Positions 36,598 to 54,945 of a DNA stretch of 64,000 nt are shown piece after piece. Position 1 is the stretch's first letter. Each line of letters opens with the position of its first letter. The notes under the pieces were generated by a model. That model was not told the DNA's origin. It worked only from the letters and a program-made list of their open reading frames with translations, and ran no database searches. A program made the position numbers and the translations under genes. This DNA is from Naegleria gruberi. Taxonomy: Eukaryota. The DNA is taken from assembly GCA_000004985.1 (NCBI GenBank), contig GG738898.1. One strand, 5' to 3'.

Positions 36598-36802
36598 NNN
36601 NNNNNNNNNNNNNNNNNNNNNNNNNNNNNNNNNNNNNNNNNNNNNNNNNNNNNNNNNNNNNNNNNNNNNNNNNNNNNNNNNNNNNNNNNNNNNNNNNNNN
36701 NNNNNNNNNNNNNNNNNNNNNNNNNNNNNNNNNNNNNNNNNNNNNNNNNNNNNNNNNNNNNNNNNNNNNNNNNNNNNNNNNNNNNNNNNNNNNNNNNNNN
36801 NN
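36598..36802. other. assembly gap (205 N)
   Basis: Run of n characters. Confidence 1.
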
Positions 36803-37999
36803 GCGAAATTGTTGGGATGTATCCATTTTCGACAGTGGAAATGATTAGAATCCAATCTAAACCATTATCCTTAATGGTTGTCACACTAATTCTCCTACCA
36901 TCATATTGAAAAGATGAACTGTTAACTTTCAATGTCAAACTTTGAATATCATTAACTTTTTTTGAGTTATTTAATCGTAAAATATCACGTTTGTCAAGCT
37001 CGTTTGCTAATCGTTCGTTTCTACTATCTATTTCAGTCATTTGAAATCGTTTTCCATCTACTATATTCGGTTGAGAAAATGAATTCGAAACTAACATTCC
37101 ATTACGCTCAACCAAGACAATATCAATACTGTTGGTGTTCATGTCTAAGTGTCTACAGACTGTATTATTGAGTAATTGATCCATGTAGAATAGATCATAT
37201 TGCATTCCAATTATTTCTTCCACAAGAATCATTTCAGTTCCATTTTTAATAAATATTGGAAAATCCAATTTAGTAACTGCTGAAATTGATGGTGTGTTGA
37301 ACAGGTAGTGAATCCAAATATCTGTCCAAACGTATTGTGGGTATGTGTATTGATTAATATACCAAGGTCTTGTCGTGCAATCATACCCTCCTTTTTCAGT
37401 TGTCGTATTCGAAATTGGTTGAAAGTATTCGTCAAAATCAGACGATTTCAGTATGAGATCAGGTCCACTAGATTGAACTCTACTTCTATTCTTTGAAATT
37501 TCCAAACTAAACAATTGTTTTTGGCTATTTCCATAGGTTATTTCAGAGAAAGTCCTCGTAGACGAAATAATTGGTGCCAATTGACTCACCACTCGTTTAT
37601 AATTCTCAGTAAAATTCCCAATTTCATTGCCATAGATGTGTTGATGTAAAAAGAGAGAAGTTCTCAGATTGGATAAAATCTGTCTCGAAGTATGTACGAA
37701 ACCTTCCACCTCCCTTACAATATTTTCTTCTCTAATTTTGGAAGTGTTTGCAAGAGCTGTTTCTCCACTTTCCAATTTTGGATTTTGATTAAATTGTTGA
37801 AAACTAACCTCGAATAAATAATTATCAGCATGCACCCAATGCAGACGAATGTTTGTATGAGGAAAATTGAAAGGAAAATATTTTGAATGGTGTTACATTT
37901 CGAACAGGGAATTTTCCTTGGTGAAACAATTGTTTTTTCAATGTCGTCCGATTTTTCACAGGAGGACGATTCTGGTGGTGAGGTTATGCTTGTCTGCAT
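36803..37999 (-). CDS. signal-anchored protein with extracellular Cache (dCache-like) sensor domain, partial (3' end lost in gaps); complement(join(<36803..37767,37809..37999))
   Basis: ATG at 37997..37999 in a tacaaaaaaaATG context (track start 38059 is a GTG). Exon 1 is MQTSITSPPESSS... plus a TM helix (IFLSIFLIQTFVCIGCMLIIIY). A 41-bp intron (GTTAGT...GGAAAG, 37768..37808) is phase-consistent. Exon 2 encodes an extracellular domain carrying the Cache hallmark RPWY (CTTRPWYINQYTYPQYVWTDIW). The ORF runs into gap 36598..36802. Confidence 0.55.
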
Positions 38000-38994: not shown

Positions 38995-41900
38995 TTAAAT
39001 GTTGAATTCTCCTTCTAAGAATGTGTAAATAATTNNNNNNNNNNNNNNNNNNNNNNNNNNNNNNNNNNNNNNNNNNNNNNNNNNNNNNNNNNNNNNNNNN
39101 NNNNNNNNNNNNNNNNNNNNNNNNNNNNNNNNNNNNNNNNNNNNNNNNNNNNNNNNNNNNNNNNNNNNNNNNNNNNNNNNNNNNNNNNNNNNNNNNNNNN
39201 NNNNNNNNNNNNNNNNNNNNNNNNNNNNNNNNNNNNNNNNNNNNNNNNNNNNNNNNNNNNNNNNNNNNNNNNNNNNNNNNNNNNNNNNNNNNNNNNNNNN
39301 NNNNNNNNNNNNNNNNNNNNNNNNNNNNNNNNNNNNNNNNNNNNNNNNNNNNNNNNNNNNNNNNNNNNNNNNNNNNNNNNNNNNNNNNNNNNNNNNNNNN
39401 NNNNNNNNNNNNNNNNNNNNNNNNNNNNNNNNNNNNNNNNNNNNNNNNNNNNNNNNNNNNNNNNNNNNNNNNNNNNNNNNNNNNNNNNNNNNNNNNNNNN
39501 NNNNNNNNNNNNNNNNNNNNNNNNNNNNNNNNNNNNNNNNNNNNNGAGTGTGGATAGGAACAGGATTTTCATAGTGATGATGTTCCATATGTAATTCCAC
39601 ATCTGCTGATGAAATTATTGGCTTGTGATGAGAATCATCTTCCACTTGTGGAGTTTGTGGAATTTGTTCCTCTCCTTCCCATGCTCGTTTCACATTGGCA
39701 ACAAATGTTGTTGGAATACCAGTTGCTTGTTGCATAGTACCATCCACTTTGAGTGTTCTTGTTGATGATTGCTTCTCAAAGAGGTTACTAATATTGTACG
39801 TAGTGGTGGTTGTGGTGGCTGTGGTAGCTGTGGTGGCAGGTCTTTCTGAAATACAGTCTTGTGCATTCAAACTTTCCAAATTAACTTTAGAATTAATTGG
39901 TAGGATACTATTGATAGAGTATTTGAGTGATCTTGAAGTTGCTGGTGTTGATGGTTTAGTTGATGATTGACTGTAAATAGAACTAGATGGTTGAATAACA
40001 TGATGGTCAATCAAGTCTATGGAATCAACAACTTGTTGTGGAACAACCGAATTCTTCTTAATCAGGTCCAAATTCAATTCCTTGATAGAAATGACAGAAT
40101 TTGCAGTGGATGGCCTCTTGTCTTCCTCTTCAGTTGGACGAGTTGGTGTAGATGGTATTTCTTGATCGGGATTATATTCCTTTCTAGGAATGTAAAAATT
40201 TCCTTCAATATCTTCATGACTTGGAACAGCAATTTCACTTTCGTCACCATAATGTTTCTTTGAAGGAAGCTTAATCTTTTGTGGTTTGAGGTCATCATGA
40301 GTAACATAGGACAAGTGACGAAGAAGTTTTGGAATAGGACGTGGTCGAATAGGTCTGACCGGTCCAGAACCTTCCTTTGGGTTGGTGGAACCATGCTTAT
40401 TCTTTGAATTCTTGGTATTTCTCTTTCTCATAAAGAAACATACAAGGAAAAGCAACAAGAACATGCAGGACAATCCACATACTATGGCTGCTGAAAACAC
40501 AGCTGCTGCAACGTACATGTACGAGTAGTGAGAAACTGTGGCAGTCTGGATGACAAAGACATTGGTAAAGTGAGAACATTTACAATAGGCATGTGTATCA
40601 TTCTTCAGTTGGAGGGAACATGAGTAGGTAACTTCAGTAGTTCCATCTAAAAAGTCTGCACATGCATAACTGTCTGTTTCCTCTGTAAAATCGAATGAAC
40701 TTGCTGTACTAGATGTAAGAGTACTTGTAGTATTGATGGGAATAATGTAAATGAGGCCATCTTCCTTCATAGGAACACTCAAGTCCGTGAATTCAACCGA
40801 GACAATTGGAGAAATAAGACTTGACGTTCTAGTTGTCGAGGCAGAAAGTTTTTGTGAAAGTTTTAGCTTTCTATCAAGAGAAAACACATCATCTGTTACT
40901 GTCATTACGTACGTGAATGGTTTTTTAACAAGTGATGATACCTTATTTTCAAAAACAAAGAAATTGTCTGGAATTAGAACAGAAGTAGATCTTTCAGAGT
41001 CAGTAATGATATTCTCATAATCATAAATGGTACTTTTACCCATAATCATGGAGAAGAATGGTCCTTTGGTTCTAGTAATAGTACGAGAAATGTACATGTC
41101 TCTGGTTTGAAGATTTGACGACATTTTGAGTGCGGATAATAATTTTCTAGAATTGGAAGTTTGGTCAGTAATGTACTGTCTTTCCATAATGTAGTCATGG
41201 ACAGATTCAACACAAGCATTCAATAGGTTTTGCACACCTGGAGATAATTTGATTTTTCCAGAATCTTGGGCAGTTGTTAAAAACCTATTCAGGGTGCATA
41301 ATGCCTCTGAAATTGTCTTGGAATTGAGGAAATGATAATTAACAAGGATTGAATCAACAGCAAATGAGAGTAGAGAAATGTAATCCTCATTCAAACCATC
41401 AGTCTTATTCATACTTGTAGTAATATCATTTAGGACAGTTAATTTGCTCTTTTGGATGTTAGAAAAATCTCTAATGGAGGTTTCACAATGAGTACCAATA
41501 TATCCATCAGCACACTTGCATTCGCCTGAAACTTCTACACCACTTATACATTGAAGATACTTGGTTGATCTTTCATTTATGGAACGCTTAAATGATAAAT
41601 CTCCAAGGGTTTCTTTCAATAGAACCGAATCTGTTCTAGAAGTAGAGGCAGATTGATAGATGCTCTTACTGAAATGACCTTCGGACATGTAGGTTGCACT
41701 CACCCCTGACCAAGTCGATACAATTTCTTGAACTTGTTCAATGTCTGTTACTGTTGGTTTGGAAATTGTAATATTCTTCTCCATAAGAGTTGTACCGCCT
41801 GTGACAGTATTGATAATTTCAAAGAAACAAGTCACTGTATCACCATAGAATGGTGCAGGTAGTTTGGAGGCAAACACTTCACCAAGGTTGTACAGATAAA

Positions 41901-44900
41901 TCTTGGATCCTGATCTATCATCCAAAAAGCCATACTTAAAGTCAATATTTTCATCTGGATTTTTACAATTGGTACAATAGAAATCAAATTCAGTTTCAAG
42001 TGCAATACCTGTTGATGGATTAATGGAGCAATCACATGGTTTTGGAATGGAAGCCATTGAGAATGCATACGCTGTTCTCACAGTAACACCAGAAGAAGTA
42101 TCTCTTGCTGCAATAGTAAGAGTATTGGTTGAACCCTGCACAAGCAAGGTTGTATCTATGACTCCTGTCACCATTTCTGCAGCACCAACTTGCTGTACTA
42201 TGAATTTAGACTTGTCAAGAATCATTCCATTGAGAACCCATGTGGTTTCTGTGGAGGAAGTTATTTCTGATGAGATTAAAGTTTGAACGGAAAGTTTTTG
42301 CCCAGGAATCAAGTATTGAGTAGTAGGATTAATATCAAGGATATTCACCACAGGTGGAATATTATTAAAGTAAACAATGGTGGACTTTTCCACAATTCTG
42401 TCAGTTTTGGAGACTCTTAATCGAAGTTGAAGTGATGAAGGAACAATCATGCTTCCAAACAGGGCTGAATCAATGGTGAATAGCTTGGCTTTTGTGCTTG
42501 AAATGGATCGAAGCAAACTGAGCAAATCAGGATTGCCACTATCTAAGCAACTCCATGTCCATGTTTCCACTGATTCATAATTGATGGCATCCTCTGGATC
42601 ACTGTATTCCACTTTAATGACTGTATATGTCTTTCTGGATTCTAATTGAACAAGATTTAGATAGAGGTCTGGAGATTTTGTTGTCAATGTCACAGTAGAG
42701 GTTGAGGAGAGTGTTGGATTTGAAGCATAGTAAGCTTTCACTGTGAATGAGTAGCTCACACTTCCAAAAGTTCTCAATCTAGAAATGTACAAATTGTTAA
42801 ACTTGTCTACAGTGAATTCTATGGCAGGCCCTGATGTTTGAGCCCAATCAATTGTAACAGATTCTGATGCACATGTTGACTGAGTAACAACCTTCTTGAT
42901 TGAAGAAGGAAAATCTGTTGTGAGCTTTTCAACCAAGGATGGAGCCATCACTAAAGGAAGAGGTTTCTCAGACTTGACAAATTCCCTCGAATATACATAA
43001 GGACTAATAGTATTCAATGAAGGGCTATGGACCTGAAGCATCATTCTATATCTTCCAGCTGGAAGTGATGCTTCCAACTTGATAATAGCTTGATTGGGAT
43101 AACTATTAGATACAATTTCAAAGGTAGTTGCATCGAGTAAGGACCAATAATAGCTCAATTGCTTTCCATCATTGGAGTGGCTCAGAGTGCCATCTACACT
43201 AATTTCATCACACGAACTAAACATGTCTATATTGGCCATACTAATGAAGGCAGTTGGGGTGTTATTCTGTAAGGGCATGACAACTGGAATGGAAATATAT
43301 TCCTCTCTGGTTGTTAAGTTATTGTATCTATCGTAGACGAGTGTATTCAATTTGATTGATTGACCACTTTCTAATGTATAATCAATTGAACCAAAAGTGA
43401 TCATGAAAGCATAGCTTGCCTTATTCAAATATTTACATTTCACATTAGAGAAGGAACCATAAACATTTCTGGACCTATCTTCTGAACTGATAAGATTCGA
43501 GCACGGAATTTCCACACCAGTAAATGCTGTTGGGAGGTTGAGTTTAAATACTAATCCAGAAAAATCGGAAAGAATAGTGGCAGGTCCTTCAATCTTGGTT
43601 GCACAATTAATTCCATAATAGCCATTCAAACAAGTGTCACATAAGGAGCCATTCCAGAATCCACGTTCAAAACTTGAATAACATTTGCAAGTCAAATCAG
43701 ATTTACATTCTCCATTATTGAAACAATTATTTGCACAAGTACTATTTACAACAGTTGTTGGAGTACTGCTTGAATTATTGCTAGTATTGCTAGTTGCATT
43801 GTTTGAAATCGGTGGAACTATAACCTCGTTACTTGTGTTGTTTGTTGGAGTGGTTGAGTTTTCATTGGGAATGGTAATGTTTGGATGTAATTGTTCTGAA
43901 CAATTAAATCCCAAGTATCCATCCTTACATTTACAAGTGTCAAAATCAGTACACTGACCATTACCAGAACATACTAACTCAGATGTGGATTTAACAGAAA
44001 AGCAAGTTGTGAAATTACAGTTTGGTCCAAAATATGGCAAGTTACAGTCACAATGATTGAAAGATTCACACCTACCACGGGATTGACAAACAAGGGATTC
44101 ATTACTCAATACACCAAAACAACTTGTCACAGAGCAATCACTTCCAAAGCTATTTGGTTCACATTCACAAGTGTCCAAGTCTGAACAAACTCCTCTTTGA
44201 GAACAAACAGTCATATCTAACTTGGATTTACCGTAGCAATAAAAGTGAGAGCAATCTGGGCCAGAGTATCCTTTGTTGCAGACGCACGTATCATGACTTG
44301 TACAACTACCACGGCCAGTACACGTCTCAGAGCTATTGGACGATTTTGAAAAACATGTAGTCAACTCGCAATTCATTCCAAAATAGTTTTCAGCACATTC
44401 ACATTGGTCGAACTCAACACATTTTCCTCTGGAATTACACACAGAAGAGGAATTTGATGGAATATTGTGGCATAGAGGAATTTCACAATTAGATCCAGTA
44501 TATGAAGAATTGCAAGAGCAATGATTTAAGGTGGAACAATTTCCTCTTGAATTGCATACATTTGGATCATGAGAAGAAATTCCAAAACATGTAGTGTACT
44601 GACACCAAGGTCCTGCATACTCTGATGGACAATGGCACTCATCAACCTTTGAGCAATTTCCAACAGAATTACATACTTTGGAAGAGTTTGAGGCAATTCC
44701 AAAACATGTAGCCAACTCGCAATTTCTTCCTGTATACTTTTCATTACATGTACAATTATCTGGTGAATGGCAAGGGCCGTGATAGCTACAAACTGAAGAA
44801 TTACTATCCTTAATACCAAAGCATAGAGAACCAAAGCAATTATCACCATAAGAGCCGTGGTTACAAATACATGTATTCGAATCGGTGCATGAACCATGTC

Positions 44901-47900
44901 CAGAGCAAACACTGGATTGGTTATTCATTACACCAAAGCACTTGTAATTTTCACAATTGGATCCATAATAACCTGATTTACATTCACACAGATTGTAATC
45001 TTTACAAGAACCATGCGCAGAGCAAACATAAGAATCATTAGAAGCAATACCTGCACAATAGCTCTTTTCACAGTTGGTTCCAAAGTAGTGAGCTGAACAA
45101 GAACACTTATCGGCAGAGATACATTGGCCATGAGAGGAACAAACTGAGGAAACATTACTTAAAACTCCATTACATTGTGTTACTTCACAATGCTTGCCAA
45201 AATAATCCTTTAAACATGAGCAAGTCTCAATGTCAATACAAGTGCCCCTTCCTGAACAAACTTTAGTATCGGTACTGAGTGTACCATTGCATTTGAATAG
45301 TTCACATTTGCTTCCTGAGTAACCACTCTTACATGTACAGTTATTGAAATTAGAACAGGTACCATGAGAAGAACAAACTGAAGAGCTATTAGAAAGAGTT
45401 CCATAACATGAAGAAACCTGACAAGTTGAACCATAGTAATTTGCTGAGCAGATACAATTATTGAATGAGCTGCAATAACCATGTGAGTTACAAACACTTG
45501 GAGATGTTGAAAGTTGAGAGCCGCAGGTTGTAATCTCACATCTAGACCCCGAGTAATGATCTTGACACGTGCAAGTGTTTGGGGATGTACAATTTCCATG
45601 TGAGCTACACACAAGAGATGAATTGCCTGTTGTACCATTACATATTGGAATTTCACACCTACTTCCCAATGAATTTGATGAACAAGCACATGTATCAGTA
45701 TCTACACATGTTCCATAACCAGTGCACACTTTTGGAGATGTATTCTTGATGCCAAAACAATAGTGTTCTGAACAATTTTGCCCAAAGTTACCTTGAAGAC
45801 AAGAGCAATTATTAAACTCTCCACAAATTCCCTTTCCAGAACAAACAGAGCTAATGTTTGATAGGAATGAATAGCAAGAAGTAATTTCACATTGACTTCC
45901 CATGTAATTATTCAAACATGAGCATGTATTGAATCCAACACATGTTCCCCTTGATGAACAGACAGATGTATCATTACCAAGTTTTCCGTAACATTTAGAG
46001 ATGGAACAATTATTTCCGTAATAATTATTGGAACAAACACAAGTGTCAATATCCACACATGTTCCTCTTCCAGAGCAAGTCTTGTTCGAATAGTAAGGAA
46101 TGTCGTAGCACTTGTAATCAGAACATGTGCTGCCATAGTAGGTGTGATTACATTGACAATTATTGTAACTAATGCAGGAACCTCTTCCAGAGCATACATA
46201 CTTGCTGTTAGAGAAAACTCCAGAACAAGTAGTCAATTCACACCATTGTCCCAAATAGCCAGTTTTACAAAAACAAGTATCAGGTGCTATGCAACTACCA
46301 TGCGAATTACATACAGTGGTATCATTGGAAAGTGTTCCATTACATTGAACCACACTGCAATCCATTCCAGAATAGCCAATATTACATTTGCAAGTATCAG
46401 GACTAGTGCATGATCCTTGACCACTACAGACAAAGGTAGAATTGGATGAAGAAATTCCATAGCAACTTGTCTCCTCACAATACTCTCCAAAATATCCACT
46501 ATTGCATTCACAAACTTCGTTGGCAATGCATGAACCCCTTCCTGAACAAACAAAAGATTCATTATTACTTAGCATGCCATTGCAAATGTAGAGCGAACAA
46601 TCTGTTCCATAAGCTCCATAATTACACTTACAGCTGTTGTAGTCGATGCATTGTCCATTTCCAGAACATGTACTATTGTCATTGGAGTTGATACCATAGC
46701 ATTTTGTAAAGTTACAGCTGTTGCTTAAATATGGCTCAAATGGATCGAAACTCTTTGGTGGTTCAAATATGACACTCTCTAAAATAACATACGAGTTGAG
46801 AGCCCATATAGATCCAGCAACTGTTCCATGCACGTATAGATAGTCATCCTTGGTGGCTGATATAACAGTACCAGCTATTGGTTTTGTGGAAGAACCCCAC
46901 ACTTGTGATGAAGATCCAACCACCCAGTATAAATTTCTATGTGAGGCACAATTTAAAAAGGTAATACTTGAATTTGCATAATAGAGTGACGGAACCTTAA
47001 TTACTACTGGCTCTGTTCCAATAATAACAATATTTTGAGTTGGTTTTACAAACCAATTTGTTAAAAAACAAAGAACAGCTCCATTTCTAATGATTAGAGT
47101 TGAAGAGACATTGGTTGAGGTTAAGTATTGTGTACATGCCATATTTTGAATGAGATCAATTGATTTTGTCATTTCATCAACAAGCATCTGGCCAATTGGC
47201 TCAGAGGTCAAAACAATTGAAGCATTCTTATTTGGCAAGTACGGGAAGTATGAATATTCTTGTAATTCTAAAACCATACTAGCTGTCAATAACTGATACT
47301 CTCTTCCTATTGAGGAAATGACATGTTTTGAGCAGATCACTTTGTAACCGGCGAATATATCAGTCTTGAGTTTTTCGCAATTTTCACCTCCAAATCTATT
47401 TCCACATTGGCAAGAATTGAAATCAACACATTTTCCATTTCCAGAGCAAACATTGCTATCATTGGATGGGATACCGTGACATGAATTAATTTCACAGAAA
47501 GGACCATCATAATTAAGAAAACATTTGCAAATGTTGTAGTCTGTACAAGTACCATGTGAGCTACAAACTGAGGAAACATTTCCAAGAGTTCCATTACATG
47601 TTGTAATAGAACAATTTAAACCTAATCTGTTAGCTCCACATTGACATGTGTCTGGACTTGTGCATGAGCCATGGCCAGAGCACACTGAACTATTAAAATT
47701 ACTCACTCCAAAACAGTCATAATTGGAGCAATGGTTTCCATAGTATTTGTCTGAGCAGGTGCAATTTTCAAAAGAAGAACATTTTCCATGAGTAGAGCAA
47801 ACCAAAGAATCATTTGAAAAGATGTTTCCACATTTTGTTATATCACACTCCTGTCCATAGTAATGTTCTTCACAAGAACAATTGTTAAATGGCCAACAGA

Positions 47901-50900
47901 TTCCTCTTCTGTGGCATACCTCACTGTGATTGGAGAGAATTCCAAAACACAATGTCATTTGACAGAATTCTCCAAAATAATTTGAGGAACAATTGCACAT
48001 ATCATTAGCTGTACACGATCCATAACCATTGCAAACATTAGTGTCATTACTAAAAGTTCCATTACATTTAGAAATTTCACACTCATATCCAATGTAATGC
48101 TCAAAACAAGAACATGAATCTTTTTGAGAACAATTTCCTCTTCCACTACAAACAAAACTATTATTCATATTACTCACACCAAAGCATTCGAAATATTCAC
48201 ATTCAGAACCCGAATATCCAGGTTGGCAAGAACAATTATTGAAATCATTGCACTGCCCAAATCCCTTACAAACGAGTGAGGAGTTTTGTTGAATACCAAA
48301 GCAGGTTACAAACTCACAATATTTTCCGTAATACCCTTCTTTGCATTGGCATGTTTCTGGTGCAATGCAAGTTCCTCTTTCTCCATGACATTCTCCTATC
48401 GTACCATTACAAAGAGGTATTTCACACTCTGATCCTCCGTAGCCCAAAGTTGAATTGCAAGAACAGTTATTGGATGATATGCATTTACCTCGTTCATTAC
48501 AAACAAGTGGAGAGCTGTATGAATAATTTCCACACACATAGTCAGGCGCAATTTCCAAAATCGTAGTATTGGTACTGTTTGAAGGTTCTGAAATATTAAC
48601 CGAAAATGAACAATTCCCACACAAAGTTTGATTCCAATAAGTTTCATTGAGGGGATTGCTATTATTCGAAACTGTAATGTTTTGCTGCGTATTGGTACTG
48701 TTCATAGTAATGGTTTCATTTGAGAATAGAGTGGAAGAATTTAAAGTATAGTTTTCTGAGGGTGTACTATTGAAACCTAAAGTAGTACTATTGGTTTCCA
48801 CACATGATGAACAATTAGCTGTTGTATTGGAAGAAATACTCTCATTATAGATTGTAGAGTTGGATATTTCTAATGTGCTACTACTGGTTTGATTGTTAGA
48901 GATTTGATTATCAGAATTGTCTTCATGTTTGGTTTGATTGTTAGAATGGCTGGTTTGATTTTCACTTGAGGAGGAAAAATTCGATAGAATATTTGTGGAA
49001 TTATTTGTGAGAGTTTCATTCAAGGTTTGGTTGAATGTTTGAGAATTATCTTCCAATTCTCTTCCAAATTTGTGCGCTGAGTTGTTCAAAGTGCAATTAC
49101 TTCCCACTGGACAGTTTTCTAAAGCTGTCGCATTTTCCAGCAGAGAGCTAGTTGTCTCATTGAGTGATGAGGTATTAAGAGTGGTGGAGTTCTGAGAGAA
49201 TACAGTTCCATTCACTGTGTTATTTGACTGGAAAGAAGTGTTCCACGAAGCAATTTCACTACTGGAATTAGTTGTGCTCTCAAAAGTAGTGTTGAACGTG
49301 AACGTATGATTCGACAGAATTCCAGTGCTGTTCTCCAGACCTGTTTGATTGAAAATAATTGATGAGTTCATGCTGTTATTACAATCGGGAGATGTTACAT
49401 TGAGAGAGGTATTGATCCAAATCGTGCTGTTTCCTCCTTCATACGTATCAGAACTGTTGTAATGTTGAAGGATTGTTCCATTTGAGGTACTAGCATTATA
49501 ATTTTCACTGCTTGTAGTATTTTCCCAAACGGATGAATTGGAAAAGATAGTCGATTCGTTAGAGTAGGAAGTGAAATTCGATTGTGTGCCATTCCCCATG
49601 AACCATTCAGTTGAATTAGTAACAGATGTACTGTTCTTGTCTAAGGTTTCATTTGTACCATAAAGACAAGTATCACATGTGATGTTCAACACTGTGTAAT
49701 TGGAAAAGTTTGAAGAGTTACTAGTCAAACTCTGATTGGTGGCCAATTCGGTGTTGTTAAGACGAACATTTGAAAAATTTCCTGTAGAATTGCTTCCTAC
49801 TTCTAAGGAATTGTTGGTTACATTATTTGTACTGGTAGAATTATCAGAAATGGTGGTATTAGTATTAGTTCCAGTAGAATTATCCGAATCAGTTCCGTTT
49901 GTTTGACCAACAAAGTTAGTTCCATTATTTGATTCAGTAGTATTACTTGAAGAGGTGCCATTTGATGGAGTATTATTAATAGTTGAATTAGTGTTTGTTT
50001 CATTAGTATAAATAGTTCCATTATCCAATTCAGTAGAATTAGAAGAGAAAGGAATGGTTTCATTGAACGAAGTATGTTCGTTTGTAAGATTGTGATTTGT
50101 TATATTACTTTTGGTATTTTCTAACTTGGTTTGATTTACCATATTTGTAGCATTGAGCTGTGTATTGTTTGCTAAATTCGATGAACTATTAAGGGACAAG
50201 CTATTTGTCTCATTTGAAAGGATTGTGGAATTTATGACAGTTTGATTTTCTCCTTGAAATATTTCAGTTACTGTCCCATTATTGAATGGAGAGGTACTAT
50301 TCTCATAACTTTGGTTGTAAAAGCTTTGATTAGTGACAACGGAATAGTTTACAGTGGTGTGATTAAAGTCGTGAGTTATGTTGCCATGTACTACACTACT
50401 GTTGCTCACTGAATTATTCTCAGCCCTTTCAGTTATATTTAACACTGTAGAATTTCCTTCAGATTCACTAACTTTTCCTTTTGTTGGTATTGAATCATTA
50501 AGATTTTCACTGCCATTCTTTGAAATAGGATTACTTGAATTTGTAAGTTCCGTATTGTTTTCTGCTATTAAAGAAGTATTAGAAATACTGTGGTTTGTTT
50601 TTTCATGGTTTGTATTATTCAAAATGGTGCCATTAATTGTTTCATTCAAAGATATAATAGAGCTGTTACTACTTGTAAAGTTATGCATTTCTGTATCATT
50701 AAGCTGAGATCTGGTAATATTATTATAAATAGACTCATTAACAAATGATATCTGTGTTGCATTAAGAGATACAGAATTGTTAGACAATAGAGTATTATTC
50801 TCTTCGGAGTATCTCGTAAAGTTAGCATGGGTTTGATTAAGATTAGTACTATTTATCAGTGTGGAATTATTTTCATTCACTGTTCTATTCAATTCAGAAT

Positions 50901-53900
50901 GGTTATGTGGAGGTGTTTCAGTGCTGTTTTCTACAACTTTGTTTGAACTATTGCTGAATGTTGAATTCCACTGGTCAGTGACATTGAACGAAGTATTTGA
51001 AAGTGGATTTGTTGAATTGAGTAGACTTGAATTTGATACAGTACTTTGGTTGCCAAGGGAGGAGCTGTTCCCAAAGGTTTCTGTTCTGTTTACAAATTCG
51101 TTTGTGTTGTTATCCAAAGAGTTTGATCCTGTTATGTTACAGTTTGTATTATTTAAAGCAGCTGTAGTATTACTATTCTCTGTTGCATTAGCAAATCCGA
51201 AAGTGCCATTAGATAAGGAATTGTTGAAAGTTGCAGTATAACCCAAGTTTAGGGAATTGTTTGAATTTGTATTGGTGATGTTTCCTAATTGTGTACTTTC
51301 TGTGTAATTTAAATCATTCGTAGAATTAGAAGAAGTGAAATTCTGATTTGTACTGTTATTGGTATGTTCATTACTTGTATGGTTTGTTGTTGTGTTATTT
51401 TCCACCAATGAATTATTTAGTGCTGTAGTGTGATTTTGAACAAAAGTCTCATTGTTCAAGGTTTGTGTGTTATTTACACCAAATAAAGTCTCATTATTCC
51501 CTGATTTTCCTTCCAAAGTTTGATTCCTGGTTTCGTTTAAAAAACTTGAATTAGTGATAGCAGTATTATTTTCCAATACTGAAGATTGATTGTGTAACTT
51601 TGTGTTATTCTCAAATAGAGTGGTATTAATTGTCTGAGAATCGTCGATCATAGACGTTGCGTTAGTGTTAATTGTGAGATTCTCATTATTAACTGTAGAG
51701 TTTGTTTCAATACTGGGTACAGATGAGCTATTCTGATTCTCAGTTTGGTTGTACCTACTATGAAGAGACTCGTTCCCTATCATTGTTTTGTTTTCATTTA
51801 TCAGGGTGTCATTATTTACAAGAATTGTAGAACTAATAGATCCATTGAGGTACGTATCATTGAGTTGAAAGGTAGATTCATTAAGGAAGTTTAGACTTGA
51901 ATTCAAATTTGTATAGTTCACAGATATTGAAAGTGTTTGATTTTGTGATTTGATATTGACAAAAATGGAACTGTCATTCCTCAGAGTTTCGTTCAATGTT
52001 ACATTACCAACTGTGGTGACTTTGGTAGAATTTTCTGAAGAATTTCCATTCAAGAAACCGGTTTGGTTACTTATTGCCGTTCCATTTTCGGCAGGCATTG
52101 TTTGCTTTTCGAAAGTTGTAGTGTTGTTTTCAGCAAAACTATTATTTTCGGGCCTTGTGGTATTTTGAGTGGAAACTGTAATAGACATATTGCTAGAAAT
52201 TTCTCTGGTGATGTTGGAGTTTGTCATATTAGGATTAGTATTTGCCAAGTTATTAACCACTGAGCCGTTTTCCTGCAACGTTTGATTTCTTGTTTCCAAG
52301 CTGTCATCAGATCTAGATGTCGAGTTACTAGCAATACTGGTATTTGTTATTGAAATAGTTGTGACATTACTTTGTTCAGTGTTGTTCCAATTGGTTGAGT
52401 TCATTGTTTTGTTGCTTTCAAGGTTTTCTAGTGTTAAGTTCTTTGAAGACGTTTCATTAAGAAAAACGGTTTTGTTTGTAATAGTATCTTGTGAAGAATT
52501 ACCTCCGTTAGTATTATTGCTAGTGGTGATATTGAAAGATTCTGTGCGATTGATAAATAAATCAGAAGTGTTGTTTAGCACAAGCAATGAACTGTTAAGG
52601 TTAGTGGAGTTCTCAAGTGTTATGGTTGAATTGATTGAGATTGTTGAATCATCCAAAACAAACTGGTTTGTATTATTCAAATCTGTTGAATTACTTGTTT
52701 CATTCACCAATAATACGGAGGTATTAGAATAGCTATTGGAGAGTGTGTTATTCTCAATAGCATCAGTTGTATTTAAGCCTGTTGAATTCACAATTGATAA
52801 ACCTGATTCGTTAGAATGGTTTGAATAGTTATCAAACTTTGAGCTGTTGCTCCCGGTTAATGAAAAGTTGGCTACATCATTAAAAGTTGAATTATTAACA
52901 AGACCATGTGATTGACCCGAGGGACCGCTAATTGTTTGGTTTTCTGGGAAATGACTAGTGTTGAGCCTTGTTGTATAATTTGAATCAAGAGTGTTATTAG
53001 AAATAATGTCTGAACTAGCATTATTGGAAATTCTTGTACTATTCCCAGTGGTCATGGTACAGTTATTTGAATCATTAGAAGTAATATTTGAAACAGTACT
53101 ATTTGAAATTGTTGAATTGTTCACTGTTTCATTTCCTTGCTTAGTAGCTATGGTTGCATTCAAATCAACAGAGGAGTTGGATGGAACACTTGGAATATTA
53201 GATTCGTTTGAAAAATTTGTAATATTATCAAACCTAGAGCTGTTTCTCCCATTCAAAGTTGAGTTTGTAAGGTTATTAAATGTTGAATTCTCGAATGTCG
53301 ATAGGTTACTCCCACTCAGTGACGAGTTGGTAACATCTTTTAAGGTTGAATTATTAACTGAAGTAATGTTGGTTTCATTCTCAATACCAAATGATTGATT
53401 TGAGGGACTACCACTATTTGATAATGTTTGGTTTTCGGAGCTATAACTCGTGTTCACACTAGTTGCATTTTTTGAATCAACAGTGTTATTATTAGTCATG
53501 TTTGAACTAGTATTAGATAGTATTGTATTGTTAAAAGTTTCATTTCCTTTTTGTATAACAGTTGAATTCAATTCTAAAGTAGTATAGTATATACTTGTAT
53601 CATTTTGTTCAATAGATGAATTATTTGATAAGACGGTCTCATTTAGAATAACAGATCGATTATTCCAAGTACTGTCACTTGCATTTGTTTCATTTAGTGT
53701 GACAGTTACGTTATATGTCAGACTTGTATTGAAACTGGTCTCATTCTTAATTTGTCCATAAGAATTGTTCATTGAGGATGTTTCATTTGGATGAATTAAA
53801 GTCTCATTAACATTTACATCTGATTGGTTTGATGCTGTGTAAGTACTATTCCTTCCTGGACCAGTAGAGTTATTGAAAGTCGTCTCGTTGTTAGATGTTG

Positions 53901-54945
53901 AATTGTTTGATGTCAATTCACTTTCGTTGAATGTTGTATTTGAAGATGATCCAGTATCGTTTTGTCCATTACTGCTAACATTTAAACTTGTTTGGTTTGT
54001 TAAAGAAGTATTGGAATACATAGAAGAGTTGGAAACTGGTTCGTTAGTAAAGGGTGTATGTTGATCGGTTGCATTGTCCAGTAATGTCGAGTTATTAACG
54101 ACGTACGAGGTAGTATTGCTCTCAAAATAGGATGTATTGCTCTCTACATTTAGCTCCGTAGTGCCATTACTGACTTGTGAATCAGTTGTTTGGTTATCTT
54201 CTCTAAATATTCCAGTACTATTTGTTGAACTAGTATTATTTACAAGACTACTATTATCGCTAGAAATAGTAGCATTATCAAAACTAAAGTTCTTGGCGGA
54301 TGAGGTATTAACTGCCTCTGTGATTGTGGAAGTATTACATGCCAAACCGGTGTATCCATCTGTACAATTGCAAGTATTAAAATCAACACAGGTTCCATAT
54401 CCACTGCAAGTTGATGAGCTGTTCGATTCCACATCAAAACAGTATGTATATTGACAATGTGTTCCAAAGAACTGTTCCTCACATGTACATGACGACGTTT
54501 CATTACTGAGCCAAGAACAGTTACCATGTCCTGAACATGTGATCATGGTACTGTTATTATACTCACTTTCATTCCATGTCTTGGCTATCGAAGAACACTC
54601 CACATACTCGCACTCTTCTCCATAAAATCCCAACTGGCATTCACATTCAGTGTCATTTGTACAATTTCCTCGTCCAGAGCATATATTTATGCTAAGATTA
54701 TCATCAGTGAATAGCCTTAATTTGCAACTGTTGTGTCCCGATGATGATGTAGCAATTACTTTCGATAAAATTGCTCTCTGAATTATTAAGCATTGTATCA
54801 CCAATATTATCATGATCATAATATTTGTTATTGTTGTTATTCGCGTTTTCCATTTTACTCGCCTCCACACTTTGAATTTCTCATCCAAAAAGGTTGCTCC
54901 TTCACACGTATGATGATGAGAGTGAAGATGAACACGAATCGGCAT
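38995..54945 (-). CDS. giant single-pass surface protein (~5,300 aa): signal sequence, 3-4 EGF, ~1,500-aa N-glycan-sequon stalk, two arrays of tenascin-type EGF repeats (>55), REJ/GAIN-like region with GPS motif, TM helix, long cytoplasmic tail (3' end uncertain because of gap)
   Basis: Single ~16-kb open frame with no candidate introns. In-frame ATGs lie at 54945 and 54819 (MIMIILVIQCLIIQRAILS, signal-peptide-like). EGF consensus C.G.G.C....C.C...Y.G..C recurs from ~49600 to ~43900. The GPS-like motif is ...YSCSLQLKNDTHAYCKCSHFTNVFVIQ at ~40545..40600. TM helix YMYVAAAVFSAAIVCGLSCMFLLLFLVCFF at ~40440..40530 is followed by RKRNTKNSK stop-transfer. The tail runs into gap 39035..39545. Confidence 0.85.
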   Translation of the reverse strand: MPIRVHLHSHHHTCEGATFLDEKFKVWRRVKWKTRITTITNIMIMIILVIQCLIIQRAILSKVIATSSSGHNSCKLRLFTDDNLSINICSGRGNCTNDTECECQLGFYGEECEYVECSSIAKTWNESEYNNSTMITCSGHGNCSWLSNETSSCTCEEQFFGTHCQYTYCFDVESNSSSTCSGYGTCVDFNTCNCTDGYTGLACNTSTITEAVNTSSAKNFSFDNATISSDNSSLVNNTSSTNSTGIFREDNQTTDSQVSNGTTELNVESNTSYFESNTTSYVVNNSTLLDNATDQHTPFTNEPVSNSSMYSNTSLTNQTSLNVSSNGQNDTGSSSNTTFNESELTSNNSTSNNETTFNNSTGPGRNSTYTASNQSDVNVNETLIHPNETSSMNNSYGQIKNETSFNTSLTYNVTVTLNETNASDSTWNNRSVILNETVLSNNSSIEQNDTSIYYTTLELNSTVIQKGNETFNNTILSNTSSNMTNNNTVDSKNATSVNTSYSSENQTLSNSGSPSNQSFGIENETNITSVNNSTLKDVTNSSLSGSNLSTFENSTFNNLTNSTLNGRNSSRFDNITNFSNESNIPSVPSNSSVDLNATIATKQGNETVNNSTISNSTVSNITSNDSNNCTMTTGNSTRISNNASSDIISNNTLDSNYTTRLNTSHFPENQTISGPSGQSHGLVNNSTFNDVANFSLTGSNSSKFDNYSNHSNESGLSIVNSTGLNTTDAIENNTLSNSYSNTSVLLVNETSNSTDLNNTNQFVLDDSTISINSTITLENSTNLNSSLLVLNNTSDLFINRTESFNITTSNNTNGGNSSQDTITNKTVFLNETSSKNLTLENLESNKTMNSTNWNNTEQSNVTTISITNTSIASNSTSRSDDSLETRNQTLQENGSVVNNLANTNPNMTNSNITREISSNMSITVSTQNTTRPENNSFAENNTTTFEKQTMPAENGTAISNQTGFLNGNSSENSTKVTTVGNVTLNETLRNDSSIFVNIKSQNQTLSISVNYTNLNSSLNFLNESTFQLNDTYLNGSISSTILVNNDTLINENKTMIGNESLHSRYNQTENQNSSSVPSIETNSTVNNENLTINTNATSMIDDSQTINTTLFENNTKLHNQSSVLENNTAITNSSFLNETRNQTLEGKSGNNETLFGVNNTQTLNNETFVQNHTTALNNSLVENNTTTNHTSNEHTNNSTNQNFTSSNSTNDLNYTESTQLGNITNTNSNNSLNLGYTATFNNSLSNGTFGFANATENSNTTAALNNTNCNITGSNSLDNNTNEFVNRTETFGNSSSLGNQSTVSNSSLLNSTNPLSNTSFNVTDQWNSTFSNSSNKVVENSTETPPHNHSELNRTVNENNSTLINSTNLNQTHANFTRYSEENNTLLSNNSVSLNATQISFVNESIYNNITRSQLNDTEMHNFTSSNSSIISLNETINGTILNNTNHEKTNHSISNTSLIAENNTELTNSSNPISKNGSENLNDSIPTKGKVSESEGNSTVLNITERAENNSVSNSSVVHGNITHDFNHTTVNYSVVTNQSFYNQSYENSTSPFNNGTVTEIFQGENQTVINSTILSNETNSLSLNSSSNLANNTQLNATNMVNQTKLENTKSNITNHNLTNEHTSFNETIPFSSNSTELDNGTIYTNETNTNSTINNTPSNGTSSSNTTESNNGTNFVGQTNGTDSDNSTGTNTNTTISDNSTSTNNVTNNSLEVGSNSTGNFSNVRLNNTELATNQSLTSNSSNFSNYTVLNITCDTCLYGTNETLDKNSTSVTNSTEWFMGNGTQSNFTSYSNESTIFSNSSVWENTTSSENYNASTSNGTILQHYNSSDTYEGGNSTIWINTSLNVTSPDCNNSMNSSIIFNQTGLENSTGILSNHTFTFNTTFESTTNSSSEIASWNTSFQSNNTVNGTVFSQNSTTLNTSSLNETTSSLLENATALENCPVGSNCTLNNSAHKFGRELEDNSQTFNQTLNETLTNNSTNILSNFSSSSENQTSHSNNQTKHEDNSDNQISNNQTSSSTLEISNSTIYNESISSNTTANCSSCVETNSTTLGFNSTPSENYTLNSSTLFSNETITMNSTNTQQNITVSNNSNPLNETYWNQTLCGNCSFSVNISEPSNSTNTTILEIAPDYVCGNYSYSSPLVCNERGKCISSNNCSCNSTLGYGGSECEIPLCNGTIGECHGERGTCIAPETCQCKEGYYGKYCEFVTCFGIQQNSSLVCKGFGQCNDFNNCSCQPGYSGSECEYFECFGVSNMNNSFVCSGRGNCSQKDSCSCFEHYIGYECEISKCNGTFSNDTNVCNGYGSCTANDMCNCSSNYFGEFCQMTLCFGILSNHSEVCHRRGICWPFNNCSCEEHYYGQECDITKCGNIFSNDSLVCSTHGKCSSFENCTCSDKYYGNHCSNYDCFGVSNFNSSVCSGHGSCTSPDTCQCGANRLGLNCSITTCNGTLGNVSSVCSSHGTCTDYNICKCFLNYDGPFCEINSCHGIPSNDSNVCSGNGKCVDFNSCQCGNRFGGENCEKLKTDIFAGYKVICSKHVISSIGREYQLLTASMVLELQEYSYFPYLPNKNASIVLTSEPIGQMLVDEMTKSIDLIQNMACTQYLTSTNVSSTLIIRNGAVLCFLTNWFVKPTQNIVIIGTEPVVIKVPSLYYANSSITFLNCASHRNLYWVVGSSSQVWGSSTKPIAGTVISATKDDYLYVHGTVAGSIWALNSYVILESVIFEPPKSFDPFEPYLSNSCNFTKCYGINSNDNSTCSGNGQCIDYNSCKCNYGAYGTDCSLYICNGMLSNNESFVCSGRGSCIANEVCECNSGYFGEYCEETSCYGISSSNSTFVCSGQGSCTSPDTCKCNIGYSGMDCSVVQCNGTLSNDTTVCNSHGSCIAPDTCFCKTGYLGQWCELTTCSGVFSNSKYVCSGRGSCISYNNCQCNHTYYGSTCSDYKCYDIPYYSNKTCSGRGTCVDIDTCVCSNNYYGNNCSISKCYGKLGNDTSVCSSRGTCVGFNTCSCLNNYMGSQCEITSCYSFLSNISSVCSGKGICGEFNNCSCLQGNFGQNCSEHYCFGIKNTSPKVCTGYGTCVDTDTCACSSNSLGSRCEIPICNGTTGNSSLVCSSHGNCTSPNTCTCQDHYSGSRCEITTCGSQLSTSPSVCNSHGYCSSFNNCICSANYYGSTCQVSSCYGTLSNSSSVCSSHGTCSNFNNCTCKSGYSGSKCELFKCNGTLSTDTKVCSGRGTCIDIETCSCLKDYFGKHCEVTQCNGVLSNVSSVCSSHGQCISADKCSCSAHYFGTNCEKSYCAGIASNDSYVCSAHGSCKDYNLCECKSGYYGSNCENYKCFGVMNNQSSVCSGHGSCTDSNTCICNHGSYGDNCFGSLCFGIKDSNSSVCSYHGPCHSPDNCTCNEKYTGRNCELATCFGIASNSSKVCNSVGNCSKVDECHCPSEYAGPWCQYTTCFGISSHDPNVCNSRGNCSTLNHCSCNSSYTGSNCEIPLCHNIPSNSSSVCNSRGKCVEFDQCECAENYFGMNCELTTCFSKSSNSSETCTGRGSCTSHDTCVCNKGYSGPDCSHFYCYGKSKLDMTVCSQRGVCSDLDTCECEPNSFGSDCSVTSCFGVLSNESLVCQSRGRCESFNHCDCNLPYFGPNCNFTTCFSVKSTSELVCSGNGQCTDFDTCKCKDGYLGFNCSEQLHPNITIPNENSTTPTNNTSNEVIVPPISNNATSNTSNNSSSTPTTVVNSTCANNCFNNGECKSDLTCKCYSSFERGFWNGSLCDTCLNGYYGINCATKIEGPATILSDFSGLVFKLNLPTAFTGVEIPCSNLISSEDRSRNVYGSFSNVKCKYLNKASYAFMITFGSIDYTLESGQSIKLNTLVYDRYNNLTTREEYISIPVVMPLQNNTPTAFISMANIDMFSSCDEISVDGTLSHSNDGKQLSYYWSLLDATTFEIVSNSYPNQAIIKLEASLPAGRYRMMLQVHSPSLNTISPYVYSREFVKSEKPLPLVMAPSLVEKLTTDFPSSIKKVVTQSTCASESVTIDWAQTSGPAIEFTVDKFNNLYISRLRTFGSVSYSFTVKAYYASNPTLSSTSTVTLTTKSPDLYLNLVQLESRKTYTVIKVEYSDPEDAINYESVETWTWSCLDSGNPDLLSLLRSISSTKAKLFTIDSALFGSMIVPSSLQLRLRVSKTDRIVEKSTIVYFNNIPPVVNILDINPTTQYLIPGQKLSVQTLISSEITSSTETTWVLNGMILDKSKFIVQQVGAAEMVTGVIDTTLLVQGSTNTLTIAARDTSSGVTVRTAYAFSMASIPKPCDCSINPSTGIALETEFDFYCTNCKNPDENIDFKYGFLDDRSGSKIYLYNLGEVFASKLPAPFYGDTVTCFFEIINTVTGGTTLMEKNITISKPTVTDIEQVQEIVSTWSGVSATYMSEGHFSKSIYQSASTSRTDSVLLKETLGDLSFKRSINERSTKYLQCISGVEVSGECKCADGYIGTHCETSIRDFSNIQKSKLTVLNDITTSMNKTDGLNEDYISLLSFAVDSILVNYHFLNSKTISEALCTLNRFLTTAQDSGKIKLSPGVQNLLNACVESVHDYIMERQYITDQTSNSRKLLSALKMSSNLQTRDMYISRTITRTKGPFFSMIMGKSTIYDYENIITDSERSTSVLIPDNFFVFENKVSSLVKKPFTYVMTVTDDVFSLDRKLKLSQKLSASTTRTSSLISPIVSVEFTDLSVPMKEDGLIYIIPINTTSTLTSSTASSFDFTEETDSYACADFLDGTTEVTYSCSLQLKNDTHAYCKCSHFTNVFVIQTATVSHYSYMYVAAAVFSAAIVCGLSCMFLLLFLVCFFMRKRNTKNSKNKHGSTNPKEGSGPVRPIRPRPIPKLLRHLSYVTHDDLKPQKIKLPSKKHYGDESEIAVPSHEDIEGNFYIPRKEYNPDQEIPSTPTRPTEEEDKRPSTANSVISIKELNLDLIKKNSVVPQQVVDSIDLIDHHVIQPSSSIYSQSSTKPSTPATSRSLKYSINSILPINSKVNLESLNAQDCISERPATTATTATTTTTTYNISNLFEKQSSTRTLKVDGTMQQATGIPTTFVANVKRAWEGEEQIPQTPQVEDDSHHKPIISSADVELHMEHHHYENPVPIHTXXXXXXXXXXXXXXXXXXXXXXXXXXXXXXXXXXXXXXXXXXXXXXXXXXXXXXXXXXXXXXXXXXXXXXXXXXXXXXXXXXXXXXXXXXXXXXXXXXXXXXXXXXXXXXXXXXXXXXXXXXXXXXXXXXXXXXXXXXXXXXXXXXXXXXXXXXXXXXXXXXXXXXXXXXXIIYTFLEGEFNI
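39035..39545. other. assembly gap (511 N) in cytoplasmic-tail region of giant gene
   Basis: Run of n characters, flanked upstream by a Thr-rich low-complexity tract (TTATTATTTTTTY). Confidence 1.
43900..49600 (-). repeat. two tandem arrays of tenascin-type EGF-like repeat units (~31-33 aa each) inside giant gene, separated by a ~230-aa non-repeat insert (~46700..47390)
   Basis: The same 6-Cys unit recurs: CxGxxSNxSxVCSGxGxCxxxxxCxCxxxYxGxxC. Confidence 0.7.
49650..54300 (-). repeat. low-complexity coding tract: Asn/Ser/Thr-rich stalk saturated with N-x-S/T sequons (inside giant gene)
   Basis: About 4.6 kb in which nearly every 4-6 codons forms N-x-S/T (e.g. NTSSTNSTGIFREDNQTTDSQVSNGTTELNVESNTSYFESNTTSYVVNNSTLLDNAT...). 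Codons are dominated by AAT/ACT/AGT/TCA. Confidence 0.7.

What the first reader, a model, noticed from the sequence alone, without database searches (positions are those of the whole stretch)
40545..40600. GPS (GPCR-proteolysis-site)-like motif immediately before the single TM helix
...ACADFLDGTTEVTYSCSLQLKNDTHAYCKCSHFTNVFVIQTA fits the GPS consensus (four Cys, C-x-C-x-H-[LF]-[ST]-x-F-x-V). It sits ~15 residues before the TM helix, as in polycystin-1/REJ proteins and adhesion GPCRs. This predicts autoproteolysis at HF|T, giving a non-covalently attached ectodomain in a single-pass protein.
Basis: partly seen in the sequence, partly recalled or inferred. Interest (0 to 1): 0.6.

Follow-up and report, generated by a model that had tools for sequence, protein, structure and literature searches.

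The report
GAIN/GPS domain in amoeba surface protein
The flagged motif is the end of a real GAIN ("self-cleaving") domain next to the single membrane anchor of a giant Naegleria-type surface glycoprotein, an ordinary new member of the polycystin/REJ kind, and whether it actually cuts itself is doubtful.

Summary
The quoted peptide is aa 4761-4802 of a 5,316-aa ORF on the minus strand (nt 40540-40665). It has four Cys and an H4792-F4793-T4794 tripeptide about 14 residues before the only C-terminal TM helix.

The predicted autoproteolysis is not secured:
- His at -2 occurs only in this copy. The paralogs have Q, S, R, K or T there, and two have Gly at +1.
- By sequence register, the Phe (first Cys +2) and the Gly-Cys found in cleavage-competent human receptors are Asp and Ser-Cys here.
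- Position -1 is Phe rather than Leu/Ile, and the GPS tryptophans are absent.

Single-TM REJ-GPS proteins (sea urchin SpREJ1/8/9) and protist GAIN domains are already known. Verdict: new member of a known kind; cleavage possible but unproven (about 0.3).

The parts
38995..54945 (-). Giant ORF (5,316 codons as listed) encoding a type-I surface glycoprotein. In order it has an N-terminal hydrophobic signal, an N/S/T-rich region, EGF arrays, REJ, an EGF-like module, GAIN, one TM and a tail. Only 39546-54945 is reliable, because an N-run (39035-39545, 511 nt) interrupts the tail.
54748..54846 (-). N-terminal hydrophobic segment (aa 34-66), a signal peptide or signal anchor.
   Evidence: Kyte-Doolittle scan
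41719..42786 (-). REJ domain (aa ~4054-4409).
   Evidence: Pfam PF02010, E 4.7e-18, 65.5 bits against a cut-off of 25. P0001 also hits REJ.
41485..41550 (-). Single EGF-like module (aa 4466-4487) between REJ and GAIN.
   Evidence: Weak EGF_laminin/EGF_TEN hits. Its Cys pattern is invariant in the two N. gruberi homologs aligned there, P0001 and P0002.
41098..41475 (-). GAIN subdomain A: five long alpha-helices (aa 4491-4616).
   Evidence: AF2 model m42a8b2932fee, helices at model residues 3-128. Aligned to GAIN structures.
40522..41076 (-). GAIN subdomain B: a beta-sandwich of ~13 strands (aa 4624-4808), including the GPS.
40540..40665 (-). GPS motif (aa 4761-4802) with four Cys (4762, 4776, 4788, 4790) and an N-D-T sequon.
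   Evidence: Aligned in register to the ADGRD1/ADGRL3 GPS.
40564..40572 (-). H4792-F4793-T4794 tripeptide. The putative scissile bond is F4793|T4794. [quoted passage not shown]
40423..40527 (-). Single transmembrane helix (aa ~4807-4841).
   Evidence: There is one TM after the GPS in all eight homologs.
39547..40422 (-). Cytoplasmic tail (aa 4842-5133, up to the assembly gap). No recognisable domain and no PLAT.
   Evidence: Pfam scans with no hit

Best explanation
The motif is the C-terminal GPS part of a genuine GAIN domain (aa ~4491-4808). The domain forms the juxtamembrane module of a giant, heavily N-glycosylated, single-pass type-I surface protein of a Naegleria-type (heterolobosean) amoeba. 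The membrane-proximal cassette is REJ, one EGF-like module, GAIN, one TM helix and a domain-less tail. This is a polycystin-1/REJ-type ectodomain without the PLAT and multi-TM channel part.

Shown:
- the GAIN fold and the REJ domain;
- four conserved Cys placed for the two GPS disulfides;
- H-F-T in the turn between the last two strands;
- the last strand (TNVFVIQTATV) running straight into the TM helix.

Inferred: the domain works mainly as a folded mechanical coupler, with the final beta-strand clamped inside subdomain B so that it links the ~4,800-aa ectodomain to the membrane anchor. This copy has the H-x-T triad needed for cis-autoproteolysis. In that reaction His4792 deprotonates Thr4794, Thr attacks the Phe4793 carbonyl, an N-to-O acyl shift follows, and the ester is hydrolysed. 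However, it lacks the second-shell features that make the reaction efficient in animal receptors, and the family does not conserve the His.

I therefore expect cleavage to be absent or partial rather than constitutive. About 0.3 for efficient cleavage, and about 0.45 for any detectable cleavage.

If it is cleaved, the ectodomain would stay non-covalently bound and could be shed under force. There is no 7TM or 11TM domain for a tethered agonist to act on.
For: GAIN fold:
- The AF2 model from a 9-sequence alignment has pLDDT 80.6 and pTM 0.80, with 5 helices and ~13 strands.
- The eight best Foldseek PDB matches are all GAIN domains: BAI2 8oek E 1.3e-13 (TM 0.62), BAI3, CL1, CELSR1, ADGRL3 and CD97.

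Sequence:
- Family profiles hit the ADGRD1/ADGRL3 GPS in register.
- REJ Pfam E 4.7e-18.
- There is a single TM in the query and in all eight homologs.
- The four Cys plus N and V at +2/+3 are invariant in the 9-member family.

Doubt about cleavage:
- The -2 residue is H only in the query. The paralogs have Q, S, R, K, K, R, T and K, and two have Gly at +1.
- CL1 H836S, L837A and T838G abolish cleavage (PMC3321182).
- The H-x-S/T motif is not sufficient. Phe at first-Cys+2 and Gly-Cys are conserved in cleavage-competent receptors. BAI3 R855H alone gives 6.5% cleavage (PMC13062082).
- The query has D4764 and S4775-C4776 at those positions.
Against: - The triad is complete (His base, hydrophobic -1, Thr nucleophile) and sits in the predicted tight turn, so efficient cleavage cannot be excluded.
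- The equivalence of D4764 to the pi-stacking Phe rests on sequence register from the first Cys. I could not check it on model coordinates. The invariant aromatic F4765 next to it, or an Asp-His pair, might substitute.
- BAI proteins with Arg at -2 are reported to be cleaved in brain (PMC3321182), so the K/R paralogs might also cleave.
- Rules derived from human aGPCRs may not transfer to a protist family.
- Pfam GPS is below its gathering score, and the two canonical Trp are absent.
- The model rests on only nine sequences. A 3-sequence alignment gave an unusable model (pLDDT 38).
Confidence: 0.55

Rival explanations
1. One reading: the GAIN domain is fully active. The protein is constitutively self-cleaved at F4793|T4794 in the ER and is displayed as a non-covalent heterodimer. 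That heterodimer is a ~4,790-aa glycosylated N-terminal fragment plus a C-terminal fragment made of the last strand, the TM helix and the tail. The ectodomain can be shed by force.
For: - Complete H-x-T tripeptide in the turn between the last two strands of a confident GAIN model.
- Four Cys for both GPS disulfides, and a hydrophobic -1 residue that alternates L/F across the family, so the pocket accepts Phe.
- REJ upstream. REJ is reported as required for PC1 GPS cleavage (PMC1934368).
- SpREJ3 and PC1 are cleaved at the GPS.
Against: - The His is unique to this copy among nine family members, and two members lack the nucleophile.
- Phe at first-Cys+2 and the Gly-Cys motif are both missing.
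- BAI2 (HLS) and ADGRG5 (HLT) show that the motif alone is insufficient.
- Phe at -1 lies outside the Leu/Ile consensus (PMC13197933).
Confidence: 0.3
2. Chance resemblance: the CxCxH[LF]T string is a fortuitous match in a Cys-rich EGF protein, and there is no GAIN domain.
For: - Pfam GPS is only 15.9 bits, below the gathering score of 22.5.
- The ORF has 272 Cys and 41 CxC motifs.
- The Trp residues of the motif are absent.
Against: - About 0.03 chance matches are expected.
- The motif and its position before the TM are conserved in eight paralogs.
- Profile hits to the aGPCR GPS are in register.
Confidence: 0.03
3. The gene is really a multi-pass PKD1-like protein (TM1, PLAT, then more TMs) whose remaining exons are hidden in or beyond the assembly gap at 39035-39545.
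For: - The 511-nt N-run lies inside the tail. Its length is not a multiple of 3, so the listed C-terminus is unreliable.
- REJ plus GPS is the hallmark of the PKD1 family.
Against: - All eight N. gruberi homologs end 39-184 aa after a single TM.
- The 290 aa of tail before the gap carry no PLAT domain. In PKD1 proteins PLAT follows TM1 directly.
- No further hydrophobic segment is present.
Confidence: 0.05

Closest known systems
Sea urchin receptor-for-egg-jelly proteins with one TM (SpREJ1, SpREJ8, SpREJ9), PKD1 family (PMC1934368)
   Same: A REJ domain followed by a GPS directly upstream of a single transmembrane helix, in a large modular glycosylated ectodomain.
   Different: No C-type lectin domain was detected and only a weak PKD-like hit (in homolog P0001). 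Instead there are teneurin-type EGF arrays, a ~1,900-aa N/S/T-rich region and an ice-binding-like module. An EGF-like module is inserted between REJ and GAIN. The organism is a discoban amoeba, not an animal. No sequence relative was detectable outside Naegleria.
Polycystin-1 (PKD1) and PKDREJ
   Same: A REJ-GAIN/GPS cassette immediately before TM1. The PC1 site is H-L|T and this one is H-F-T.
   Different: No PLAT/LH2 domain after TM1, no 11-TM body and no channel-like last six TMs. There is therefore no membrane domain for a stalk or tethered agonist.
Adhesion GPCR GAIN domains (ADGRB3/BAI3 4dlo, ADGRB2 8oek, ADGRL1 4dlq, ADGRF1, CELSR1, ADGRG6, CD97)
   Different: - No 7TM domain and no HormR.
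- 9-14% sequence identity.
- The GPS tryptophans are absent.
- The loop between the first and second Cys is 5-6 residues shorter.
- The post-cleavage sequence is TNVF rather than TxFxxLM.
Protist GAIN domains reported by Arac et al. 2012 (Dictyostelium discoideum, Tetrahymena thermophila; PMC3321182)
   Same: A GAIN domain outside animals, placed immediately before the first TM helix.
   Different: Different supergroup (Heterolobosea/Discoba). I found no paper linking GAIN to Naegleria. Here it is combined with REJ and a single TM. The cleavage residues are not conserved across the family.

Membership tests
GAIN domain (GPS-containing autoproteolysis-inducing fold) | A ~320-residue fold with an alpha-helical subdomain A and a beta-sandwich subdomain B that ends in the GPS strands | tested here: met
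   [not shown]
GAIN domain (GPS-containing autoproteolysis-inducing fold) | Four conserved GPS cysteines (C...C...CxC) that form two disulfides | tested here: met
   C4762, C4776, C4788 and C4790 are invariant in all 9 family members.
GAIN domain (GPS-containing autoproteolysis-inducing fold) | Two conserved tryptophans in the GPS motif | tested here: not met
   There is no Trp between the first and second Cys in any member. Phe (first Cys +3) and an aliphatic residue occupy those places.
GAIN domain (GPS-containing autoproteolysis-inducing fold) | Domain immediately precedes the first TM helix | tested here: met
   T4794 is about 14 residues before the TM at aa 4807-4841. The same holds in eight homologs.
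GAIN domain (GPS-containing autoproteolysis-inducing fold) | Pfam GPS model (PF01825) above its gathering score | tested here: not met
   15.9 bits against 22.5, E 0.019. It is the top family but sub-threshold in 6 of 9 members.
Cleavage-competent GAIN domains | Tripeptide His(-2)-Leu/Ile(-1)-Ser/Thr(+1) | tested here: inconclusive
   The query has H-F-T, so -2 and +1 are met but -1 is Phe. The paralogs have Q/S/R/K/T at -2, and two have Gly at +1. Consensus taken from PMC13197933.
Cleavage-competent GAIN domains | Aromatic residue at first-Cys+2 (F S10.49) that pi-stacks on the His, and a Gly-Cys at the second Cys | tested here: not met
   D4764 and S4775-C4776 by sequence register. Criteria from PMC13062082. 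Not verified in 3D.
Cleavage-competent GAIN domains | Observed autoproteolysis into N- and C-terminal fragments | not testable with these tools
   Needs a Western blot, N-terminal sequencing or proteomics.
PKD1 / polycystin-1 family | REJ domain | tested here: met
   PF02010, E 4.7e-18, 65.5 bits against a cut-off of 25.
PKD1 / polycystin-1 family | PLAT/LH2 domain after TM1 | tested here: not met
   No Pfam hit in the 290-aa tail. About 170 aa are hidden in the N-run, but the homolog tails (39-184 aa) have no recorded PLAT either.
PKD1 / polycystin-1 family | Eleven TM helices with a channel-like C-terminal six | tested here: not met
   One TM after the GPS in the query and in all homologs. 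Single-TM members (SpREJ1/8/9) are nevertheless counted in the family.
Adhesion GPCR | 7TM domain after the GAIN domain | tested here: not met
   Single TM only, and no 7tm Pfam hit.

The most novel reading that the evidence does not exclude
A functional self-cleaving GAIN domain operates in a single-pass adhesin of a discoban amoeba. It would use a non-canonical environment, with Asp4764 beside His4792 instead of the animal Phe pi-stack, giving an Asp-His-Thr arrangement, and Phe at -1. The REJ-GAIN cassette would then date back to near the eukaryotic root as a force-releasable ectodomain anchor that existed before it was coupled to 7TM or 11TM signalling bodies.
Probability: 0.15. Interest if true: 0.6.

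Novelty: new member of a known kind. Interest (0 to 1): 0.35.

Why it matters
The finding extends the REJ-GAIN juxtamembrane cassette to Heterolobosea (Discoba). It was previously known in animal polycystin/REJ proteins, adhesion GPCRs, and some amoebozoan, ciliate and stramenopile proteins. This supports an ancient origin for the cassette that is independent of GPCR signalling.

The family offers a natural set of variants at the -2 and +1 positions (H, K, R, Q, S or T at -2; T or G at +1). These lie on a common single-TM scaffold that lacks the Phe and Gly second-shell residues. Such a set could be used to test what a GAIN domain needs in order to cleave, and what it does when no 7TM partner exists.

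None of this changes current understanding unless cleavage is demonstrated.

Tried and rejected
- **Word-index homolog searches.** The GAIN-region alignment A2 and the GAIN region alone returned nothing. The first search found P0001 and P0002. The family was only recovered by the exhaustive HMMER search.
- **First structure prediction.** The 3-sequence alignment gave an unusable model (pLDDT 38). Only the 9-sequence alignment gave a confident model.
- **AFDB fold search.** The library was not available, so nearest predicted structures such as PC1 or protist GAINs could not be ranked.
- **Metagenome scans.** No orthologs from other species were available to test conservation of the His.
- **Exact-sequence look-ups.** Three window proteins and P0001/P0004 were not on record. 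The source species and synteny could not be established. The query is about 43% identical to each N. gruberi paralog, the same distance as the paralogs are from one another.
- **Literature.** No paper in the library pairs 'GAIN domain' with Naegleria. Papers that mention both Naegleria and polycystin were not relevant.
- **Chance-motif idea.** Rejected on the fold evidence.
- **Hidden multi-pass PKD1 body.** Judged unlikely from the homolog topology.

Full report
**Observation.** The window region 40300-40900 and the ORF table show that the quoted peptide is encoded on the minus strand. It lies inside a 5,316-codon ORF (38995..54945). The peptide ACADFLDG...NVFVIQTA is aa 4761-4802, nt 40540-40665. 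The coordinates given (40545-40600) cover only its C-terminal half.

The four cysteines are C4762, C4776, C4788 and C4790. The tripeptide is H4792-F4793-T4794, nt 40564-40572. A hydropathy scan finds only two hydrophobic segments in the whole ORF. One is an N-terminal signal or anchor (aa 34-66) and the other is a TM helix at aa 4807-4841.

One detail is inexact. After Thr the sequence is N-V-F-V, so the Phe is at +4 and not +3. The canonical GPS tryptophans are also absent.

The core pattern C-x-C-x-H-[LFIM]-[ST] occurs once in all six frames of the window. About 0.03 matches are expected given the 41 CxC motifs of this Cys-rich ORF.

**Sequence-level family evidence.** Pfam finds many EGF_2 and teneurin-type EGF repeats in the ORF. 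It also finds a REJ domain at aa ~4054-4409 (PF02010, E 4.7e-18, 65.5 bits against a cut-off of 25).

The Pfam GPS model is the top hit for the motif segment but is sub-threshold (15.9 bits against 22.5, E 0.019). It is likewise the top weak hit in 6 of 9 family members.

A profile built from the query and two homologs hits PDB sequences only at the GPS of adhesion GPCRs, and in exact register (CxCxHLTNF). With the TM included, ADGRD1 scores E 2e-5 and ADGRL3 E 2e-3. The nine-sequence profile without the TM gives ADGRL3 E 4e-3.

**Relatives.** The first homolog search returned two Naegleria gruberi predicted proteins at 45% and 40% identity. An exhaustive HMMER search with the GAIN-region profile against 1.84 billion representative proteins found only eight relatives. 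All eight are N. gruberi paralogs annotated as predicted or uncharacterised proteins.

The query is about 43% identical to each paralog over this region. That is the same distance as the paralogs are from one another. The other genes in the window are eukaryotic: Ku80, a DOCK DHR-2 protein, an F-box protein and a PAS-adenylate cyclase. The source is therefore a Naegleria-type heterolobosean. The exact species could not be fixed.

Every homolog has the same C-terminal layout: REJ-like region, one EGF, the ~320-aa region, the GPS, one TM, and a 39-184-aa tail.

**Fold.** A first AlphaFold2 run on a 3-sequence alignment failed (pLDDT 38). With the nine-sequence alignment A5, the 321-aa model reached mean pLDDT 80.6 and pTM 0.80. 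It has five long helices followed by about 13 strands, with pLDDT 84-93 over the GPS.

The tripeptide falls in the turn (model residues 303-306) between the last two strands. That is the geometry described for the GAIN scissile bond (PMC3321182).

That test is passed: the GAIN domain is real.

**Is it cleaved?** The family alignment weakens this prediction. The residues at -2/-1/+1 are:

| Protein | -2 / -1 / +1 |
|---|---|
| Query | H-F-T |
| P0001 | Q-L-T |
| P0002 | S-F-T |
| P0003 | R-L-T |
| P0004 | K-F-T |
| P0005 | K-L-T |
| P0006 | R-F-T |
| P0007 | T-L-G |
| P0008 | K-L-G |

The general-base His is therefore unique to this copy, and two members lack the nucleophile. The four Cys and N-V at +2/+3 are invariant.

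In latrophilin-1, H836S, L837A and T838G each abolish cleavage (PMC3321182). The accepted consensus is His-Leu/Ile-Ser/Thr (PMC13197933).

A recent structural study shows that H-x-S/T is not sufficient (PMC13062082):
- BAI2 (HLS) is only 2-4% cleaved, and ADGRG5 (HLT) is not cleaved.
- Cleavage-competent human receptors carry a Phe two residues after the first GPS Cys. It positions the His by a T-shaped pi interaction.
- They also carry a strictly conserved Gly before the second Cys.
- BAI3 R855H alone gives 6.5% cleavage, rising to 24.5% when the Phe is added.

By sequence register the query has Asp4764 and Ser4775 at these two positions. ADGRD1 and ADGRL3 show the canonical C-A-F and G-C in the alignments. 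I could not verify this register on model coordinates. The adjacent invariant aromatic F4765 or an Asp-His pair might compensate.

My estimate is about 0.3 for efficient cleavage and about 0.45 for any detectable cleavage.

**Mechanism proposed.**

Shown: a REJ-EGF-GAIN cassette whose last beta-strand (TNVFVIQTATV) leads directly into the only TM helix. This sits at the base of an ectodomain of about 4,800 aa with 388 N-glycosylation sequons.

Inferred: the GAIN domain clamps that strand and so couples the ectodomain mechanically to the membrane anchor. If cleaved, the usual N-to-O acyl shift at F4793|T4794 would leave a non-covalent heterodimer of the N- and C-terminal fragments that can be separated by force. 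A tethered-agonist mechanism is not possible because there is no 7TM or 11TM body. Across the family the conserved function cannot depend on canonical His-dependent cleavage.

**Comparison with known systems.** GAIN domains outside animals are already reported in Dictyostelium and Tetrahymena, always immediately before the first TM (PMC3321182). REJ with GPS and a single TM is known from sea urchin SpREJ1, 8 and 9 (PMC1934368). REJ plus GPS also occurs in a brown alga (PMC4700764).

The present protein differs in several ways. It has no PLAT domain and no multi-TM body. It has an EGF-like module between REJ and GAIN, a shorter loop between the first and second Cys, and no Trp in the GPS. Its ectodomain is of a different make-up: teneurin-type EGF arrays, a mucin-like N/S/T region and an ice-binding-like module.

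No paper in the searchable library links GAIN domains to Naegleria. The homologs' precomputed Pfam annotations list REJ or EGF but not GPS. The finding is therefore a new member of a known kind.

**Caveats.**
- The model rests on nine sequences from what may be one or two species.
- No orthologs were available to test conservation of the His.
- The AFDB fold library was unavailable.
- An N-run (39035-39545, 511 nt, not a multiple of three) lies in the cytoplasmic tail. The listed stop codon is therefore unreliable, and up to ~170 aa are unknown. The homolog topology argues against hidden TM helices.

Noticed in passing
window 39035-39545 (also 5207-5408, 21634-22266, 36193-36558, 36598-36802, 62851-62900): There are runs of N (assembly gaps or masking). 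The 511-nt run lies inside the cytoplasmic tail of the giant ORF and is not a multiple of 3, so the ORF's last 13 codons and its stop at 38995 are unreliable.
   Followed up: partly
window 46708-47373 (-), aa 2525-2746 of the giant ORF: A ~220-aa module between EGF arrays (FAGYK...NCASHRNLYW...) gives a sub-threshold Pfam Ice_binding (PF11999) hit: 23.8 bits, E 4e-5, against a cut-off of 28.7. The same module is repeated several times in N. gruberi P0003 and P0004.
   Followed up: partly
window ~48646-54348 (-), aa ~200-2100 of the giant ORF: A ~1,900-aa Cys-free region that is 50-60% Asn/Ser/Thr. The ORF carries 388 NxS/T sequons in total, which suggests a mucin-like, heavily N-glycosylated stalk.
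   Followed up: no
window 35613-36192 (+): The neighbouring ORF carries bacterial-type Ig and cadherin-like domains (Big_9 E 2e-22, Cadherin_5 E 5e-15, Cadherin_4). It is interrupted by two N-runs. It may be another surface protein, or a gene of bacterial ancestry.
   Followed up: no
window 36803-37835 (-): An ORF on the opposite strand with only a weak dCache_1 hit (E 0.009, 16 bits against a cut-off of 45). Its apparent overlap with the + strand ORF is an artefact of reading through N-runs.
   Followed up: no
window 6055-8052 (-), 23440-25629 (-), 27983-29053 (+), 31030-32700 (+), 55565-56497 (-), 56550-58121 (-), 58268-62146 (-): Long intron-poor eukaryotic genes: PAS-PAS-adenylate/guanylate cyclase, Ku80, an LRR protein, an F-box protein, acyl-CoA dehydrogenase (C-terminal part), an APH-family kinase and a DOCK DHR-2 protein. 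None is on record as an exact protein in the public collection.
   Followed up: partly
[not shown]
   Followed up: no
N. gruberi P0008 (aa ~1030-1062): The most divergent paralog has the aromatic residue at first-Cys+2 (Tyr) and the Gly-Cys motif that the query lacks. However, it has K-L-G at the cleavage tripeptide, so it has neither a His nor a nucleophile. No family member combines the canonical features.
   Followed up: partly
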